Numbered from the stretch's first letter, positions 9,586 to 31,501 are shown. The stretch is 64,000 nucleotides of DNA from Candidatus Woesearchaeota archaeon (GCA_038825875.1 JAWBOS010000003.1:1786-65785); one strand, 5' to 3'. The notes: a model not told the origin generated them from the sequence alone. Numbers and translations are program-made.

Positions 9586-9990
9586 ATGAAAATTAAAAAG
9601 AAGGAAAAAAAGACTTCTAAATCTGAAATAAAAGATAAAGCAGAAAAAAAAGTTGTTCAAAAAAAGGAGAAAAAGAGAGAGTCTAAAAAAGAAACGCAAG
9701 TAAAGAAAGAGGTGAAATCTAAGAAATCAAAGAGTGAAAAGAAAGAAGAGTCTACGAGGACCATAGAAATTTGGAAACATCAATTAGTTCCTCAGCATAT
9801 TTTGTTAACTCCTGAAGAAATTCAGAAATTGTTTGAAGAGTATAATATAACTTTTGATAATTTGCCAAAGATAAAGGTTCATGATCCAGCAATAAAGCAC
9901 CTTAATGCAAAGCCAGGAGATGTTGTTAAGATCATTCGAAAATCAAAGATTGCAGGTGAGTGTGAATATTATAGGGGTGTGGTCGAATGA
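9586..9990 (+). CDS. rpoH: DNA-directed RNA polymerase subunit H (Rpo5) with an unusual ~60-aa lysine-rich N-terminal extension.
   Basis: The C-terminal 70 aa (HQLVPQHILLTPEEIQKLFEEYNITFDNLPKIKVHDPAIKHLNAKPGDVVKIIRKSKIAGECEYYRGVV) matches the RpoH/Rpb5 core. The gene sits at the conserved position upstream of rpoB. The N-terminus MKIKKKEKKTSKSEIKDKAEKK... is K/E-rich low complexity. Confidence 0.85.
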   Translation: MKIKKKEKKTSKSEIKDKAEKKVVQKKEKKRESKKETQVKKEVKSKKSKSEKKEESTRTIEIWKHQLVPQHILLTPEEIQKLFEEYNITFDNLPKIKVHDPAIKHLNAKPGDVVKIIRKSKIAGECEYYRGVVE

Positions 9991-22542: not shown

Positions 22543-25029
22543 TTATTTTTTAATTCTACTTATTCCATTGCTTTTTTCAACATAAATAATATTATCTACA
22601 AAACTTTCAATATCCTGTTCATGACTTACAATTATTACTTGTGAAAACATAAGTTCTTTTAGTATGTCTCTTACTTTTTCTAATTGTTCTTTGCTAAATC
22701 CATCAGTAGGTTCATCTAGAATTATTATATTTTCCTTTATGCCAAAATAGTTAAGAATAGTTTCATTGAGTGCAAGTCTATATGCTAGTGAACAAGCAGT
22801 TTTCTCTCCACCAGAAAGATCTTCAAAGTCAATATTATAACCATTTTGTTCAACTACTACGCTGAAATCTTCATCTAATCTAGAAATTAGTAGTTCATTG
22901 TCTATCAATTTATCAAACCATTTTCTGTAAAGTTCATCAAAGTCCTTTAAAATTTGTAATCTTATATGTGTTTCAATATTTTCAGTTAGCGGCATGAAAA
23001 AAGTTTCAAAATATCTAAGTAAATTTTCAAGTAATTCATACTTTTCTTTTTCTTTTTCGAGTCGATTTATTTCATTTATAATGTCTCTATTTAATTCAAA
23101 CAGATTTTTTATCATTCCTCTTAGCTCCGCTATTTCACTAATTACCTTGCTTTCCTTTTCTTCAAATTCAAGTTTACTGTTTTTTAAATTAGATTTAGTC
23201 TGTTGCACTTGATTTAGAGTTTCTTCAATATTGAGTTTTTCCAATACTTCTATCTGAGAAATTATATTTTCTTTATCTTTTTTATAAGCCTCAATCTTCT
23301 TTTTTGATAATTCCATTTCATTTAATAGATACTTCAGATGTTCTGATAACTCTTGAAGTCTTATTTCTATCTTTTCTTTTTCTTGGATTTTTTCAAGTTC
23401 TTTTCTACTAAGCAAGATCTCTTGTTTAATTCCATCAAAATCAGTCATTTTTAACACTTGTAAAATTTTTTTATATTTTTCTAAAAGAGATGAGTTTTTT
23501 TGAATTTCATTTTTTATTTCTTTTATTTCTAGTATCTGTTTTTCAAGTTGTTCTTTTTTTGCAAGAAGAATCTTGGATTCGTTTATTCGCTGTATTAGAT
23601 TGTTTATGTTCTTTCTTTTTCTTTCTATTTCATTTTCTATTTCATTCTTTTCAAATTCTAACTTTTTAAGTTTTTCATTTTCACTATTGATGAAATCATT
23701 AAACTCAGATTTTATTTTTGATTTATGAGTAGGATCAATTCTTTGTAAGCATAGTGGACAGGTTTGAAGATTTTCAATATTTTCTATAACCTTTTCTTTT
23801 TCATTAATTCTATTTTTAGATTGGAAAAAGAGATCTTTTATTTCATTTAGTCTATTTTGAAGAGATTCAAGTTCCATTTCCTCTTTTTTATGAGTTGTTT
23901 CAAGTTCGGAAACATTTTCAAGTTGAGAATTTAGCTTGATCAATTCTTCGTTAATTATTGGTTCTTCAGATAATCTTTTTTCGAGATATTCTTGCTTAAC
24001 TTCGATCTCTTTTATGTATTTTTCAGTTTCAAAAATTTGATTTTTTTTCTCTTCGAGAAATTTCTCCTTTTCTTCAATGTCTTTCAAAAGAAGCTCTTTT
24101 GATTTTTCAATATGAAGATTTTCATTTAGTAATTTTAACTTATTTATTTCATCTTCAATTTTTGACCTCTTATTTTCAGATATACTTAACTTTTCTTCTA
24201 ATTCTAAAATTTCCTTTTCAATAGTTCTTTGTTTTTCTAGAAGATTATCCTTTTCTATTTTCATCTTTAAGAATTTTGTTTCTTCATCTAATGTTTTTTC
24301 TAATTCTTTTGAGATTGACTGAATTTTTTCTTTTAATATAATTTGTTCGGACAGCAGTGAATTTAATTTTCGTTGATATTCTTCAATTTTGAGGGAATTG
24401 TTGGCAACCTTTTCTTTTAATTCAGGTAATTTTTTAGTGGACTCTGTTATTCCCTTTAAAACAGATCTTAAATATGGTAATATTATTTTTCGTAGATTCT
24501 CTCTCATAATTTCATATTTGTCAATTGAAAAAACTTTTCTAATTACACTTAAACGTTCATCAGATTTACTTCTTAAAATTTCCTTCATGGATTCCTGAGG
24601 TGTGTAGATCGTAAATCTAAATAGTGGTAAATAATCTTTTTTCAAAAATTCAAGCGGATAATTTAAAAGTTTGAAAATGAAGTATTTTGCTTCAACAGGT
24701 GAAAGATATGTTTCATTATTGTTTACAACTATTTTTACATTTTTTTGTTCGTAATTCTTGTTTTTTCTAATAATTGTTCTTTCAATGACTACTTCTTTGC
24801 CATTATGAATAAAATGTAAAACAATTTTACCTTCGCTTGTACCAACTCTCAGAAGTTTTTGATATGTTAGATCATTTACAAGGCCGAATAGTGCAAATTC
24901 TATTGCATAAAGAATAGTACTCTTTCCACTACCAATGTCTCCCTTAATCAAAGTACTGTTTAGAGGAAATTCTATAAATTCATCTACATAACTTCTGATA
25001 TTCTGGAGTTTTAAACTCTTTAGTATCAT
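22543..25029 (-). CDS. rad50: Rad50-like SMC-family DNA double-strand-break repair ATPase
   Basis: 828 aa. The Walker A motif GDIGSGKST is N-terminal. A long coiled coil carries a central CxxC zinc hook (TCPLCLQRI). The C-terminal signature LSGGEKTACSLAYRLAL and the Walker B motif IIILDEPTDGF are present. Confidence 0.85.
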   Translation of the reverse strand: MILKSLKLQNIRSYVDEFIEFPLNSTLIKGDIGSGKSTILYAIEFALFGLVNDLTYQKLLRVGTSEGKIVLHFIHNGKEVVIERTIIRKNKNYEQKNVKIVVNNNETYLSPVEAKYFIFKLLNYPLEFLKKDYLPLFRFTIYTPQESMKEILRSKSDERLSVIRKVFSIDKYEIMRENLRKIILPYLRSVLKGITESTKKLPELKEKVANNSLKIEEYQRKLNSLLSEQIILKEKIQSISKELEKTLDEETKFLKMKIEKDNLLEKQRTIEKEILELEEKLSISENKRSKIEDEINKLKLLNENLHIEKSKELLLKDIEEKEKFLEEKKNQIFETEKYIKEIEVKQEYLEKRLSEEPIINEELIKLNSQLENVSELETTHKKEEMELESLQNRLNEIKDLFFQSKNRINEKEKVIENIENLQTCPLCLQRIDPTHKSKIKSEFNDFINSENEKLKKLEFEKNEIENEIERKRKNINNLIQRINESKILLAKKEQLEKQILEIKEIKNEIQKNSSLLEKYKKILQVLKMTDFDGIKQEILLSRKELEKIQEKEKIEIRLQELSEHLKYLLNEMELSKKKIEAYKKDKENIISQIEVLEKLNIEETLNQVQQTKSNLKNSKLEFEEKESKVISEIAELRGMIKNLFELNRDIINEINRLEKEKEKYELLENLLRYFETFFMPLTENIETHIRLQILKDFDELYRKWFDKLIDNELLISRLDEDFSVVVEQNGYNIDFEDLSGGEKTACSLAYRLALNETILNYFGIKENIIILDEPTDGFSKEQLEKVRDILKELMFSQVIIVSHEQDIESFVDNIIYVEKSNGISRIKK

Positions 25030-25735
25030 TTTTAAATTTAATTAGTTTGATTAAACCTCTAAATACATCACTCTCATCAGAGAGGACTATTTTAAATGGT
25101 TTTTTGAATTCTTTCTGTATTTTTAAGTATTTTGTTAATTCCTTTCTTCTTTGATAAACAAAAAACCCGATAGACCCATGTAAAACTAATTTGTCAAAAA
25201 AGAAGATATACCATAAACATTCTATGATTTTTGCAACCTTTCTTAAGAACTCTTGTTCTTCCTTTTTTGTTAAGTCTTCAAATTTTTTTCCATTTCTGAA
25301 TTTTTCTAATAGCTCTTTTTCGAGTTCAGTTTTACCAGTGTTTATATGTCCAATCTCTCCAAAGTTCCCGTTAAGAAGTGTTCCACGATATACACATCCA
25401 ACTCCAATTCCAGTTCCTAAGATAAGTGCAACAATCGTTTCTTTTCCATGGGAATGTGCCAGAGCAATTAAATTAGCATCATTTTCAGAGACAATAGATT
25501 TTTTGATTTTTAGCTTAATATTTTTGTTTGGTATTAAGACTAATTTGGACGTTTTATCTTCCTTTAAAACGATACCTGCATAAGATATTCCCTCGATCCT
25601 TCTGTATTTATTTATTAGGTAAACTATTTTTTTAATAGATGTTTTATTATATTCAATTTTTTCAATAATCTTTTCCTTTTTTGCTAAGCGAAAATAGGTT
25701 CCGCCAAAGTCTAAAAGATACATCTTTCGATTCAC
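24980..25735 (-). CDS. ROK/glucokinase-like sugar kinase family protein (ASKHA fold)
   Basis: The N-terminal LLDFGGTYFRLA resembles the phosphate-1 motif. LILGTGIGVGCVYRGTLLNGNFGEIGHI matches the ROK signature. The CxCGxxGC zinc motif is absent. The 3' end overlaps the rad50 start by 50 nt. Confidence 0.5.
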   Translation of the reverse strand: MNRKMYLLDFGGTYFRLAKKEKIIEKIEYNKTSIKKIVYLINKYRRIEGISYAGIVLKEDKTSKLVLIPNKNIKLKIKKSIVSENDANLIALAHSHGKETIVALILGTGIGVGCVYRGTLLNGNFGEIGHINTGKTELEKELLEKFRNGKKFEDLTKKEEQEFLRKVAKIIECLWYIFFFDKLVLHGSIGFFVYQRRKELTKYLKIQKEFKKPFKIVLSDESDVFRGLIKLIKFKNDTKEFKTPEYQKLCR

Positions 25736-25859
25736 TATAGAGTATTATATATTTAAATTCTTCTTTTTTGAATTATTTTTAAAGGTAATTTGAGATGTCA
25801 TTATTTTTAAATTCATAGTAGAAACTTTTATATATCACTTTTTTCCTACTTGCCTAACC

Positions 25860-26021
25860 ATGGCAAAATTCGATGACAAAAACAAAAAGAAAAAGAAAGA
25901 AGAGTTTGAAGATGAGGAATTTGAGGAGGAATTTGAAGAATCAGATTTAGAAGAAGATTACGAAGAAGATTATGAAGATTATTCAGATGAGGACTGGGAT
26001 GAGGATTGGGAAGAGGAATAA
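25860..26021 (+). CDS. Unannotated 53-aa hyper-acidic small protein
   Basis: The plus-strand ORF ATG...TAA encodes MAKFDDKNKKKKKEEFEDEEFEEEFEESDLEEDYEEDYEDYSDEDWDEDWEEE, which is over 60% D/E. TTTTATATAT lies 25-34 nt upstream of the ATG, which suggests a leaderless transcript. The ORF is below the track's 60-aa cutoff. The opposite-strand ORF at 25846..26028 is its low-complexity shadow. Confidence 0.5.
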   Translation: MAKFDDKNKKKKKEEFEDEEFEEEFEESDLEEDYEEDYEDYSDEDWDEDWEEE

Positions 26022-26102
26022 ACATCAATCTTTTCTTTTTTAAGTTTTCTTTTGTTATTCTTGTTTTTTGTTTTTTCTTTATTTTTTCAGTTATTTGCTT
26101 GA

Positions 26103-26762
26103 TTATTTTTTGTTTTCATCTTTTATTCTTATTCTTGTCAATTCTAACAGTTCTAGATTAAAGTAAAGGATTTCTGAAGGAATTGGTTCATTAAGAAGAT
26201 ATTTTATAACAAAAGATGCAGCCAATGATGATAAAAACATCACTGCAGAATTCATCACGCCAACTTCATTTAATTTTTGAGGAATCTTATTTTTGTATAT
26301 TTTAAGTATAGAAGATTTTTGAGGAGTATATAAGTACACAAATCCATGATTTTTTTGAACAGAGGTAAACAAATAATCTCTTCTGTTGTCTAAGCAAAAT
26401 CTTGCTATTGCTATTTTTGTATTAATATCATCTGTGCAATCTACACACAAATCATTAAAAGGGATATCATTTAAGTTTGTTGAATCTACCTTTACTGGAA
26501 GAGTTTCAATATTTGAGAACTTTTTTAGTCGATTTTTTAAACAATCCACTTTTAATTTTCCAATTTCTTCTAAGAAATAGTTTTGTCTTTCAAGATTTGA
26601 TTCTTCAACAATATCATAATCGACTAATAGCAAATTTATACCAGCTTTTGCTAATAGTTCAGCAAGCCAACTTCCGGTTCCTCCACAGCCAATGATTGTT
26701 ACTTTCTTTTTTTCCAAATCTTGAAGATTGTTTTTATAGATTCTGGATTTTCGAGTGATCAT
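26103..26762 (-). CDS. ThiF/MoeB/E1-like adenylyltransferase family protein (minimal, 219 aa)
   Basis: The Rossmann nucleotide-binding loop VTIIGCGGTGSWLAELLAKAGINLLLVDYDIVEESNLERQ is typical of E1-like/ThiF proteins. Confidence 0.65.
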   Translation of the reverse strand: MITRKSRIYKNNLQDLEKKKVTIIGCGGTGSWLAELLAKAGINLLLVDYDIVEESNLERQNYFLEEIGKLKVDCLKNRLKKFSNIETLPVKVDSTNLNDIPFNDLCVDCTDDINTKIAIARFCLDNRRDYLFTSVQKNHGFVYLYTPQKSSILKIYKNKIPQKLNEVGVMNSAVMFLSSLAASFVIKYLLNEPIPSEILYFNLELLELTRIRIKDENKK

Positions 26763-30874: not shown

Positions 30875-31501
30875 TCAAAAATAGTATTTCATTCCTTTCT
30901 TATAAATTTTCCAATACTTCTTATTGCTCAACTCTTTTCTTATGTTTTTTAGATAATCTTCAAAAGAACTCTGTGTGTCCACACTCAACATTTCTAGTTT
31001 TCCGACGTGATTTTGAAGAAAATTTGATATTTTCCTAATTTCTTTGAGAACAAAATAGGCTTTTGGTAATACTTGAATATTCTTTAGGAATGATTCACGG
31101 GATTGTTGAGTATTTTGAACATACTCTAGTACATCTTGGAGAGATGCTTCTAATTTTGGTAATATCATTCGAAGATAACCTTTATAGGCAGAGTAACAAT
31201 TTTTTAGATAAAAGTATGTGTTTCTTATATTTTCACATAGTTCTGGATCTTCTTGAGCAGCTTCAGTTTTTGCTACTATTTCTGCTAAATCTCTGAAATC
31301 AAAGTCTTTTAATTCTTCTTTAGGAATTCCACAGAGATTAGAGACTCTGTATCTTAAGTTATCCATCACATTAGAGAGAACATTTTGGTAATTTTCAGAT
31401 AATACATCTTCATCAACTATAAGAGAGAAAACATTCTTCTGTTCGTAAAAGTTTTCATCTATTTGACTTTCAAGATCTTTTCTGTTATGGGAATAGGTCA
31501 T
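30875..31501 (-). CDS. Hypothetical protein
   Basis: 208-aa ORF, acidic and helical, with no motif recognised. Confidence 0.35.
   Translation of the reverse strand: MTYSHNRKDLESQIDENFYEQKNVFSLIVDEDVLSENYQNVLSNVMDNLRYRVSNLCGIPKEELKDFDFRDLAEIVAKTEAAQEDPELCENIRNTYFYLKNCYSAYKGYLRMILPKLEASLQDVLEYVQNTQQSRESFLKNIQVLPKAYFVLKEIRKISNFLQNHVGKLEMLSVDTQSSFEDYLKNIRKELSNKKYWKIYKKGMKYYF

What the first reader, a model, noticed from the sequence alone, without database searches (positions are those of the whole stretch)
25736..26102. An unannotated gene for a 53-aa hyper-acidic peptide beside a minimal E1-like (ThiF) protein
The plus-strand ORF 25860..26021 encodes MAKFDDKNKKKKKEEFEDEEFEEEFEESDLEEDYEEDYEDYSDEDWDEDWEEE. 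It has a well-placed TATA box (TTTTATATAT, 25826-25835), which suggests leaderless expression. The ORF track only shows a low-complexity antisense shadow. Peptides this acidic can act as DNA mimics (anti-restriction or nucleoid-protein decoys), or as chaperones for basic proteins such as histone or ribosomal proteins. The convergent neighbour is a 219-aa ThiF/MoeB E1-like enzyme.
Basis: seen in the sequence. Interest (0 to 1): 0.6.

Follow-up and report, generated by a model that had tools for sequence, protein, structure and literature searches.

The report
Conserved hyper-acidic microprotein gene in Woesearchaeota
A 53-codon gene for an extremely acidic peptide studded with evenly spaced aromatic residues is real and conserved in a narrow group of tiny (DPANN) archaea, is not tied to the neighbouring E1-like enzyme, and most likely makes a disordered polyanion that covers the nucleic-acid-binding surface of some basic protein, although that function is only inferred.

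Summary
Window 25860..26021 (+) encodes a 53-aa peptide with 58% D+E and net charge -24. It is by far the most acidic ORF in the window.

It is very probably a real gene:
- A Candidatus Woesearchaeota relative whose neighbouring proteins are only 44-63% identical keeps a 52-aa ORF in the same slot and orientation.
- Both copies share the same design: seven Lys, all in the first 12-13 residues, then about 40 acidic residues with a hydrophobic, mostly aromatic, residue every 3-5 positions along most of the tail.
- Both have TTTATATA at exactly -33 and the start context AACCATGG.
- A third genome shows the C-terminal end of another copy.
- All DNA repeats inside the ORF have periods that are multiples of 3.

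Every sequence search was negative: 5.8 and 1.84 billion proteins, Pfam, NCBIfam, PHROGs, PDB, phage genomes, and viral and metagenome scans. More distant Woesearchaeota lack the ORF.

The ThiF link is not supported. Relatives have another gene in between, and 80 loci around distant ThiF relatives contain no such ORF.

The function is inferred only. The best analogy is an acidic, aromatic-anchored disordered binder such as DSS1 or the APLF acidic domain. That is a resemblance in design, not family membership.

Verdict: a lineage-restricted orphan microprotein of moderate interest.

The parts
25860..26021 (+). Coding sequence of the 53-aa hyper-acidic microprotein, stop codon TAA at 26019-26021: MAKFDDKNKKKKKEEFEDEEFEEEFEESDLEEDYEEDYEDYSDEDWDEDWEEE
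   Evidence: A syntenic 52-aa ortholog is present in L007, L093 and L094, and a partial ortholog in L008. Codon positions follow G-A-N, with GAA, GAG, GAT and GAC all used.
25860..25898 (+). N-terminal basic block (residues 1-13, MAKFDDKNKKKKK). All 7 Lys of the peptide are here.
   Evidence: All K/R fall within the first 13 residues (12 in L007). This arrangement appeared in fewer than 1e-5 of sequence shuffles.
25899..26018 (+). Acidic tail (residues 14-53). It has 29 D/E and 9 hydrophobic residues (8 aromatic plus Leu30), spaced 3-5 residues apart. It is built from tandem repeats in codon phase.
   Evidence: The regularity of spacing has shuffle p=2e-4. Tandem Repeats Finder gives periods of 12, 9 and 12 nt. 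In L007 the repeat period is 27 nt.
25827..25834 (+). TATA box TTTATATA, starting at -33 from the ATG
   Evidence: The same 8-mer sits at the same distance in L007. A strict TATA at -36..-29 precedes 1% of all ATGs.
25819..25824 (+). Purine-rich TAGAAA next to the TATA box (BRE-like), conserved in L007
   Evidence: Alignment. Reading it as a BRE rests on general knowledge of archaeal promoters.
25856..25863 (+). Conserved start context AACCATGG. There is no Shine-Dalgarno motif, so the predicted 5' UTR is only a few bases (leaderless).
   Evidence: Identical in window and L007. The transcription start position is inferred from the usual TATA-to-start distance.
26030..26041 (+). Oligo-T tract CTTTTCTTTTTT, 9 nt after the stop codon, followed by further T runs up to about 26089. 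This is an archaeal-type terminator candidate.
   Evidence: A T-rich tract also follows the L007 stop codon. No hairpin terminator was found. The function is inferred.
25750..25757 (-). TATA box (TTTAAATA) of the divergent ROK gene. It lies at -34 from the probable ROK start, ATG 25723.
   Evidence: conserved block TTATATATTTAAA. It is listed because the two back-to-back promoters share the 136-bp spacer.

Best explanation
This is a real, monocistronic, leaderless small gene of a Candidatus Woesearchaeota (DPANN archaeon) chromosome.

**Product.** It makes a 53-residue peptide with two blocks. A short lysine patch (residues 1-13) is followed by a 40-residue polyanionic tail. In the tail, one hydrophobic (mostly aromatic) side chain is exposed every 3-5 residues between runs of Asp and Glu.

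**Likely state.** The peptide is most likely intrinsically disordered, or only transiently helical.

**Likely mechanism (inferred).**
- The acidic tail lies along the positively charged, nucleic-acid-binding surface or a lysine-rich tail of one or more basic partner proteins.
- The carboxylates replace phosphate contacts, and the Phe, Tyr and Trp residues plug into hydrophobic pockets.
- The partner is thereby shielded, chaperoned or competitively regulated.
- The N-terminal Lys patch could fold back on the tail as self-inhibition, or tether the peptide to nucleic acid.

**Shown versus inferred.** The gene structure, expression signals, conservation of the design and lineage restriction are shown. 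Disorder, binding mode and partner are inferred. The partner is unknown; candidates are histones or Alba, ribosomal proteins, and the lysine-rich N-terminal extension of RpoH encoded in the same window.
For: **Gene reality.**
- The ORF and its extreme composition are confirmed.
- A syntenic ortholog of 52 aa exists in a genome whose flanking proteins are 44-63% identical: ROK 44%, Rad50 51%, ThiF 57%.
- The ortholog has the same length and orientation, the same 7 Lys confined to the N-terminus, and net charge -25 against -24.
- TTTATATA lies at -33 and AACCATGG at the start in both, while the rest of the spacer has diverged.
- A third genome shows the tail end ...DDEEFDEEEW-stop.
- Between two 96%-identical genomes the ORF has 0 of 159 differences. 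The flanking spacers differ by 5-6% and neighbouring genes by 2-3.5%.
- A 99.4%-identical strain has one change in the ORF, and it is synonymous.
- Codon position 3 is mixed while positions 1 and 2 are fixed. Repeat periods are 12, 9, 12 and 27 nt, all multiples of 3.
- The antisense ORF is not conserved.
- The RNA is no more structured than shuffles (z=+0.37), and there is no Rfam match at gathering thresholds.
- The TATA position matches the leaderless gene class of this genome and is rare for random ATGs.

**Design.**
- Hydrophobic (mostly aromatic) residues are spaced regularly, shuffle p=2e-4 in the window peptide.
- Trp makes up 3.8-5.8% of the peptides against 0.6% in the window's proteins.
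- AlphaFold2 gives only short helices at mean pLDDT 67 and no fold.

**Mode of action by analogy.**
- The acidic domain of APLF uses aromatic anchors within an acidic disordered stretch and mimics histone-DNA contacts (PMC9328677).
- DSS1 is a small acidic protein that shuts down DNA binding by BRCA2 HD-OB1 (PMC11329725 and PMC7641332).
Against: - There is no experimental evidence of transcription or translation.
- No partner has been identified, and no histone gene lies in the window.
- Within the acidic tail, the residue order of the two orthologs is no more similar than composition-matched shuffles (z=0.8). The conservation is therefore of composition and pattern only, and the repeats evolve by slippage.
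- Only three species-level lineages carry it. More distant Woesearchaeota with the same ROK-Rad50 arrangement have a tRNA-Leu in the slot instead. It cannot be a core function.
- The regular hydrophobic spacing is significant in the window peptide but not across the whole L007 tail (p=0.22).
- A polyanion could equally act non-specifically.
Confidence: 0.45

Rival explanations
1. It is a real gene, but the peptide acts non-specifically as a soluble polyanion. It might buffer divalent cations or polyamines, or act as a Hero-like or 'hyper-acidic minichaperone' shield that keeps the lysine-rich proteome of this AT-rich organism soluble.
For: It has 31 carboxylates in 53 residues. Residue order in the tail is not conserved beyond composition. 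The window's proteins are Lys-rich (10.5% K). The only PDB sequence matches are very weak ones to calmodulin Ca-binding segments (E at least 0.3), which reflect a similar D/E-plus-aromatic composition. Hyper-acidic fusion partners are used as solubilisers (PMC11594932, listed).
Against: A pure counter-ion would not need costly Trp, Tyr or Phe at regular spacing, nor a segregated Lys block. Both features are kept in the orthologs. Trp is ten times rarer in the rest of the proteome.
Confidence: 0.2
2. It is a DSS1/Sem1-like stoichiometric 'glue' subunit. The peptide is a permanent small subunit that threads across a basic groove of one defined complex, for example an OB-fold ssDNA-binding or recombination protein or an RNA polymerase subunit, rather than a free chaperone.
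For: Like DSS1, it is a small free-standing protein with acidic segments and Trp or Phe anchors. L007 against DSS1 scores slightly above composition shuffles (z=2.7, p=0.012). The gene shares a divergent promoter region with the ROK-Rad50 transcription unit. RpoH in the window carries a 60-aa Lys-rich extension.
Against: There is no match to Pfam DSS1_SEM1 at E up to 1 and DSS1 is not among the PDB hits. The window peptide against DSS1 is not above composition shuffles (z=0.9). It lacks the C-terminal helix of DSS1. Repeat turnover between species argues against a precisely fitted interface.
Confidence: 0.1
3. It is not a functional gene. A purine-rich, slippage-prone spacer happens to be open in one frame and is called as a gene only because it has an ATG.
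For: The sequence is low-complexity and made of short tandem repeats. The antisense frames are also largely open. No homolog turned up in any database. There are no expression data.
Against: The start, stop, length, orientation, promoter position and block design are conserved across genomes in which typical proteins are about 50-60% identical and the spacers have diverged. Repeat periods are all multiples of 3. The ORF has 0 of 159 changes where flanks have 5-6%. Nothing comparable occurs in the other 540 kb of loci.
Confidence: 0.08
4. It is a substrate or partner of the neighbouring ThiF/E1-like enzyme. The peptide would be C-terminally adenylated or modified, in the manner of a ubiquitin-like modifier or of a ribosomal peptide precursor handled by an E1-like enzyme such as MccB or PaaA (these examples are from my own knowledge).
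For: The ORF ends 81 bp from the ThiF gene in the window. E1-like enzymes acting on short peptides exist. The peptide is Glu-rich.
Against: The two genes are convergent, not co-transcribed. A 177-181-aa gene lies between them in L007, L008, L093 and L094. The C-terminus is not conserved and has no Gly-Gly. The ThiF protein is a bare 219-aa adenylation domain with no extra peptide-binding domain and scores below every NCBIfam equivalog cut-off. No acidic ORF occurs next to 80 distant ThiF relatives.
Confidence: 0.04
5. It is an anti-restriction or anti-defence DNA mimic brought in by a mobile element.
For: Strong negative charge and small size are typical of DNA-mimic inhibitors.
Against: The locus is core chromosome, with RNA polymerase, NusA, S12, S7, EF-2, Rad50, CarS, eIF2-alpha and RFC genes. 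Synteny is conserved across species. No mobile-element genes are nearby. There is no match in PHROGs, 50,697 phage records or the viral-contig scan. Known mimics such as Ocr and ArdA are folded proteins.
Confidence: 0.03

Closest known systems
DSS1/Sem1 (eukaryotic 70-89-aa acidic protein; subunit of the proteasome lid, BRCA2 and TREX-2)
   Same: It is a free-standing, very small and largely disordered protein. It has a short basic-containing N-terminus (MSEKK...), then acidic segments with Trp and Phe anchors. It binds basic grooves and competes with DNA (PMC11329725, PMC7641332).
   Different: There is no detectable homology: no Pfam DSS1_SEM1 match, and the alignment score is no better than composition shuffles. 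The window peptide is far more acidic (58% D+E), is repeat-built, lacks the C-terminal helix and occurs in a DPANN archaeon. Whether DSS1's partners (BRCA2, PCI proteins) exist in this organism is not known.
Acidic domain of APLF, and the 'acidic stretch plus aromatic anchor' histone-binding regions of eukaryotic histone chaperones
   Same: It is an acidic disordered segment of about 60 residues. Spaced Tyr, Phe and Trp anchors insert into hydrophobic pockets while the carboxylates mimic DNA phosphate contacts (PMC9328677).
   Different: The APLF domain is part of a large multidomain DNA-repair factor, and its anchors are 6-9 residues apart. Here the segment is a stand-alone gene product with a Lys block and anchors every 3-5 residues. 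Histone binding is untested, and no histone chaperone is known in archaea (the latter from my own knowledge).
Prothymosin-alpha / nucleoplasmin-tail-type polyanionic disordered proteins
   Same: They have extreme negative charge and disorder, and they bind basic chromatin proteins. Nucleoplasmin also pairs basic and acidic disordered segments for intramolecular regulation (PMC5738438, abstract listed).
   Different: Prothymosin-alpha has no aromatic residues and is twice as long (from my own knowledge). There is no sequence relationship.
Folded DNA-mimic inhibitors (Ocr, ArdA, Ugi, and anti-CRISPR mimics)
   Same: They carry a negative surface charge that imitates DNA, and they are small.
   Different: Those are folded, usually phage- or plasmid-encoded, and target defence enzymes. 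This peptide is low-complexity, chromosomal and vertically inherited, with no match in phage resources.

Membership tests
DSS1/Sem1 (Pfam PF05160) | Significant match to the family profile or to DSS1 sequences | tested here: not met
   Pfam scans of both orthologs at E up to 1 gave no family. PDB sequence searches at E up to 10 did not return DSS1/Sem1, although the DSS1 sequence I used is correct. The Smith-Waterman score against DSS1 is not above composition-matched shuffles for the window peptide (z=0.9).
DSS1/Sem1 (Pfam PF05160) | Two acidic Trp-containing binding segments followed by a C-terminal amphipathic helix | tested here: not met
   Acidic Trp-containing segments are present, but the peptide ends in the acidic tail (DWEEE, or EEEW in relatives) with no non-acidic C-terminal helix.
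DSS1/Sem1 (Pfam PF05160) | Binds PCI-domain pairs or BRCA2-type OB folds | not testable with these tools
   No interaction data are available, and the rest of the genome is not available to look for partners.
Ubiquitin-like / sulfur-carrier proteins activated by ThiF-type E1 (SAMP, ThiS, MoaD) | Beta-grasp fold and a conserved C-terminal Gly-Gly | tested here: not met
   The C-termini are ...DWEEE...DEEEW and ...DEEEW. The AlphaFold2 model shows only short helices and no strands. There is no Pfam match.
Ubiquitin-like / sulfur-carrier proteins activated by ThiF-type E1 (SAMP, ThiS, MoaD) | Conserved genomic linkage to the E1-like gene | tested here: not met
   The genes are convergent. Another gene intervenes in four related loci. 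There are no acidic ORFs in 80 loci around distant ThiF relatives.
Phage/plasmid DNA-mimic anti-restriction proteins (Ocr, ArdA) | Sequence or profile match to known families, and location on a mobile element | tested here: not met
   PHROGs gave no family. tblastn against 50,697 phage records gave no match. The viral-contig scan found none. The context is conserved core chromosome.
Acidic-stretch/aromatic-anchor histone-binding regions (APLF acidic domain type) | Acidic disordered segment with spaced aromatic anchor residues | tested here: met
   The 40-residue tail has 29 D/E and 9 hydrophobic residues (8 aromatic plus Leu30) at 3-5 residue spacing, shuffle p=2e-4. The model has low confidence and no fold. 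This is a shared design, not homology.
Acidic-stretch/aromatic-anchor histone-binding regions (APLF acidic domain type) | Binds histone DNA-binding surfaces and prevents non-native histone-DNA contacts | not testable with these tools
   This needs biochemistry. No histone gene lies within the window. Woesearchaeota in general encode histones (PMC6136690).
Archaeal leaderless protein-coding gene | TATA box about 26-30 nt upstream of a transcript start that coincides with the start codon, with no Shine-Dalgarno motif | tested here: met
   TTTATATA lies at -33..-26 from the ATG in the window and in L007. The same spacing is seen for 11 of 54 long genes and for 1% of random ATGs. The transcript start itself has not been measured.

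The most novel reading that the evidence does not exclude
The peptide is a free-standing archaeal counterpart of eukaryotic acidic, aromatic-anchored disordered chaperones or DNA mimics (DSS1, APLF acidic domain). It would bind archaeal histones, Alba or an OB-fold or RNA-polymerase lysine-rich surface, compete with nucleic acid, and so be the first chromatin- or nucleic-acid-protein chaperone of this type described in Archaea. It would have arisen de novo from a GAA-rich repeat in one Woesearchaeota lineage.
Probability: 0.15. Interest if true: 0.7.

Novelty: new variant of a known kind. Interest (0 to 1): 0.4.

Why it matters
If the peptide is expressed and binds a defined basic partner, three things follow.
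- It would show that archaea with tiny genomes also use stand-alone polyanionic disordered microproteins to manage nucleic-acid-binding proteins. That strategy is so far documented mainly in eukaryotes (DSS1, prothymosin, acidic histone-chaperone tails) and in phage DNA mimics.
- It would be a clean, minimal model (53 residues, repeat-built) for how charge blocks and aromatic spacing encode binding.
- It would be an example of recent birth of a gene from a codon-phase repeat.

Its restriction to three sampled species limits its general importance. It also illustrates a blind spot: standard homology tools with composition correction cannot see even the true ortholog.

Tried and rejected
**Direct homology searches with the peptide were all empty.**
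- Word-indexed phmmer against 5.8 billion proteins.
- Exhaustive phmmer against 1.84 billion representatives.
- Pfam, NCBIfam and PHROGs.
- PDB sequences, which gave only calmodulin at E of at least 0.3.
- tblastn against phage records.
- Pattern plus tblastn scans of viral and metagenome contigs with the two-ortholog alignment.

BLASTP with default filters finds no alignment even between the two orthologs. These negatives are therefore weak evidence of absence.

**Technical dead ends.**
- The genome-contig scan with ThiF returned only Bacillus loci.
- The metagenome scan with the ThiF alignment returned only distant relatives, at most 46% identity over short stretches. I used these only as a background set.

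**Searches for the ORF in more distant relatives.** Four Rad50-anchored loci from more distant Woesearchaeota showed no acidic ORF.

**Structure.** The AlphaFold2 single-sequence model has low confidence, so I did not send it to fold search.

**Ideas considered and rejected.**
- Ubiquitin-like modifier or ribosomal peptide precursor for ThiF.
- Mobile-element anti-restriction protein.
- Structured non-coding RNA (z=+0.37; no Rfam match).
- Coding on the antisense strand.
- A homolog of the 181-aa neighbour, or a histone gene, hidden in the window.

Full report
**1. What is at the coordinates**

The window is AT-rich (30% G+C). It is core chromosome of a Candidatus Woesearchaeota (DPANN) archaeon: its ThiF and Rad50 proteins are identical to NCBI proteins so named. 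The surrounding genes are RpoH/B/A, NusA, S12, S7, NDK, EF-2, an MGMT-like protein, Rad50, ROK, ThiF, CarS, a P-type ATPase, Dph6, S27e, eIF2-alpha, RFC and prefoldin.

The interval 25736..26102 is the 367-bp gap between two minus-strand genes: ROK (24980..25735) and a 219-aa ThiF-family gene (26103..26762; Pfam ThiF E=2e-35, below every NCBIfam equivalog cut-off).

On the plus strand, 25860..26021 encodes MAKFDDKNKKKKKEEFEDEEFEEEFEESDLEEDYEEDYEDYSDEDWDEDWEEE, exactly as reported. It has 58.5% D+E and net charge -24. The next most acidic ORF in the window has 22% D+E.

**2. Is it a gene?**

*Promoter.*
- TTTATATA starts at -33 from the ATG.
- Many genes in this window have a TATA-like 8-mer at -29 to -36 and no Shine-Dalgarno motif. 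Operon-internal genes instead have GGTG 5-8 nt upstream.
- With a strict definition, 1.0% of all ATG triplets have such a TATA, against 11 of 54 long genes. The acidic ORF is the only intergenic small ORF that has one.
- Archaeal TATA boxes are centred about 26-27 nt upstream of the transcript start (general knowledge). The mRNA should therefore begin 2-4 nt before the ATG, which makes it leaderless.
- T tracts begin 9 nt after the stop codon.

*Conservation.* The ThiF protein has only two close relatives in 5.8 billion proteins, at 63% and 58% identity.
- The 58% relative lies on an 83-kb contig (L007) with the same gene order. Proteins there are 44-85% identical to the window's: ROK 44%, Rad50 51%, ThiF 57%, CarS 60%, EF-2 85%.
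- In the same slot, divergent from ROK, is a 52-aa ORF: MVKKEDTKKKKKYMEEEDEEEYFDEEEDFDEDWDEEEFDEDWDEEEMDEEEW.
- The spacer alignment shows conserved islands exactly where signals are expected: the ROK TATA, TAGAAA plus TTTATATA at -33, and AACCATGG.
- The 63% relative (L008, a 2-kb contig) breaks off inside a third copy. Its end reads ...DDEEFDEEEW-stop, in the corresponding position after the 177-aa gene.
- A 96%-identical sister of L007 (L093/L094) has 0 of 159 differences in the ORF. The two flanking spacers differ by 5-6% and neighbouring genes by 2-3.5%.
- A 99.4%-identical strain of the window organism has one change in the ORF, and it is synonymous.

*Coding signature.*
- Codon positions 1 and 2 are almost fixed as G and A, while position 3 uses all four bases.
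- Tandem repeats have periods of 12, 9 and 12 nt in the window and 27 nt in L007. All are multiples of three, and the repeat units differ between species.
- The window's antisense 60-aa ORF has no counterpart in L007.
- The RNA folds no better than shuffles (z=+0.37), and no Rfam family matches at gathering thresholds.

I put the probability that this is a functional protein-coding gene at about 0.9.

A gene is called for this peptide on three public assemblies, but the peptide is missing from the clustered protein collection.

**3. Design of the peptide**

Both full-length orthologs share four features:
- a length of 52-53 aa;
- seven Lys, all within the first 12-13 residues (fewer than 1e-5 of shuffles);
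- a 40-residue tail with about 30 acidic residues;
- 9-10 hydrophobic residues in the tail, mostly aromatic.

In the window peptide these residues are spaced 5, 4, 5, 4, 4, 3, 5, 4 apart (shuffle p=2e-4). In L007 the C-terminal two-thirds has 4-5 spacing, but the whole tail is not significantly regular (p=0.22).

Trp is 0.6% of the window's proteins but 3.8% and 5.8% of the two peptides.

The exact order of residues in the tail is not conserved beyond composition (z=0.8). The overall similarity (z=3.7) comes from the block architecture. Selection therefore appears to act on charge blocks and anchor spacing, as is typical of disordered proteins, while the repeats turn over by slippage.

AlphaFold2 on the single sequence gives four short helices at mean pLDDT 67 and no tertiary fold.

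**4. Distribution**

All direct searches were empty. Default-filtered BLASTP cannot align even the two orthologs, so absence elsewhere is not proven.

Synteny-based checks are more telling. The next Rad50 relatives are only about 35-37% identical.
- One of them (L009) keeps ROK-Rad50-MGMT but has a tRNA-Leu upstream of ROK.
- The other three loci have no acidic ORF.
- No ORF of 25-120 aa with at least 38% D+E exists in 80 metagenomic loci around distant ThiF relatives.

The family is so far confined to one narrow clade: three species-level lineages across seven contigs.

**5. Relation to ThiF**

- In L007, L093, L094 and L008, a 177-181-aa gene with no family match lies directly after ThiF on the same strand, between it and the acidic ORF. 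The window lacks that gene.
- The acidic ORF is convergent with that unit, and its constant neighbour is the divergent ROK promoter.
- The peptide has no Gly-Gly end and no beta-grasp fold.

The E1 link suggested by the title is therefore not supported.

**6. How it most likely works (inferred)**

The design is a polyanion with regularly exposed aromatic side chains plus a short polycation. It matches known disordered binders that occupy nucleic-acid-binding surfaces.
- The APLF acidic domain tethers histones through Tyr, Phe and Trp anchors, while its carboxylates mimic DNA contacts (PMC9328677).
- DSS1, 'the small acidic protein', shuts down DNA binding by BRCA2 HD-OB1 (PMC7641332 and PMC11329725).
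- Nucleoplasmin is reported to undergo dynamic intramolecular regulation of histone binding and release through its disordered tail (PMC5738438, title and abstract).

I therefore favour a chaperone or decoy for one or more basic proteins. The Lys block would serve as a self-inhibitory or nucleic-acid-tethering element.

Candidate partners are speculative:
- histones or Alba, which Woesearchaeota encode in general (PMC6136690), although none lies in the window;
- ribosomal proteins;
- the unusual 60-aa Lys-rich N-terminal extension of RpoH at 9586..9990.

Membership in the DSS1/Sem1 family fails on the features tested. The resemblance is one of design, not descent.

**7. Rivals**

- Non-specific polyanion, acting as a cation or polyamine buffer or as a solubility shield: 0.2.
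- DSS1-like fixed subunit of one complex: 0.1.
- Non-functional repeat ORF: 0.08.
- ThiF substrate: 0.04.
- Mobile-element DNA mimic: 0.03.

The evidence for and against each is given in the rival-explanations section of this report.

**8. Verdict**

The DNA-mimic or chaperone idea remains the best but untested mechanism.

It is an orphan, lineage-restricted microprotein: a new variant of the known kind 'small acidic disordered binder', with no homology to any described family. Interest is moderate at 0.4. It would rise to about 0.7 if the peptide proved to be an archaeal chromatin or nucleic-acid-protein chaperone.

Noticed in passing
window 9586..9990 (+): The RNA polymerase subunit H (Rpb5 C-terminal domain at residues 61-132) carries a lysine-rich N-terminal extension of about 60 aa (53% K+R over 30 residues, net +16). 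A GAGGTG ribosome-binding motif lies upstream. RpoH in more distant Woesearchaeota (L010, L012) is only 80-84 aa.
   Followed up: partly
L007 8724..9269; L008 1347..1880; L093 8378..8923; L094 4067..4612: A conserved 177-181-aa gene with no Pfam, NCBIfam or PHROGs match follows the ThiF gene on the same strand in the related genomes, probably as an operon. It is absent from the window, both at this locus and anywhere else in the 64 kb.
   Followed up: partly
window 24980..25735 (-): The ROK-family gene probably starts at ATG 25723 (247 aa, as called on public assemblies) rather than GTG 25735. That puts its TATA box (25750-25757, minus strand) at -34, so it is also leaderless. Its 3' end overlaps the Rad50 start by about 50 nt, which suggests co-transcription of ROK and Rad50.
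   Followed up: partly
L093 12527..18333; L094 8216..14022: In the sister genome of L007, a 1755-aa protein with SLT and Peptidase_M23 domains plus a 171-aa gene lie between Rad50 and EF-2. The window has an MGMT-like gene there, and L007 has nothing.
   Followed up: no
window 26103..26762 (-): The ThiF-family protein is a bare 219-aa adenylation domain. It has the GCGGTGS nucleotide loop and a DCTD motif, but no CxxC zinc motifs and no C-terminal domain. It scores below the cut-off of every NCBIfam equivalog (ThiF, MoeB, UbaA, TcdA). Only two close relatives were found among 5.8 billion proteins.
   Followed up: partly
window 30875..31501 (-): A 208-aa protein of unknown function gives a weak, sub-threshold match to the STING ligand-binding domain (E=2e-4, 21 bits against a cut-off of 27). 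This is probably chance.
   Followed up: no
L009 5432..5519: In a more distant Woesearchaeota contig that keeps ROK-Rad50-MGMT, the slot upstream of ROK holds a tRNA-Leu(GAG) gene instead of the acidic ORF.
   Followed up: yes
window, genome-wide: There are two clear classes of translation start. Leaderless genes have a TATA at -29 to -36 from the ATG. Operon-internal genes have a GGTG or GAGGTG motif 5-8 nt upstream.
   Followed up: partly
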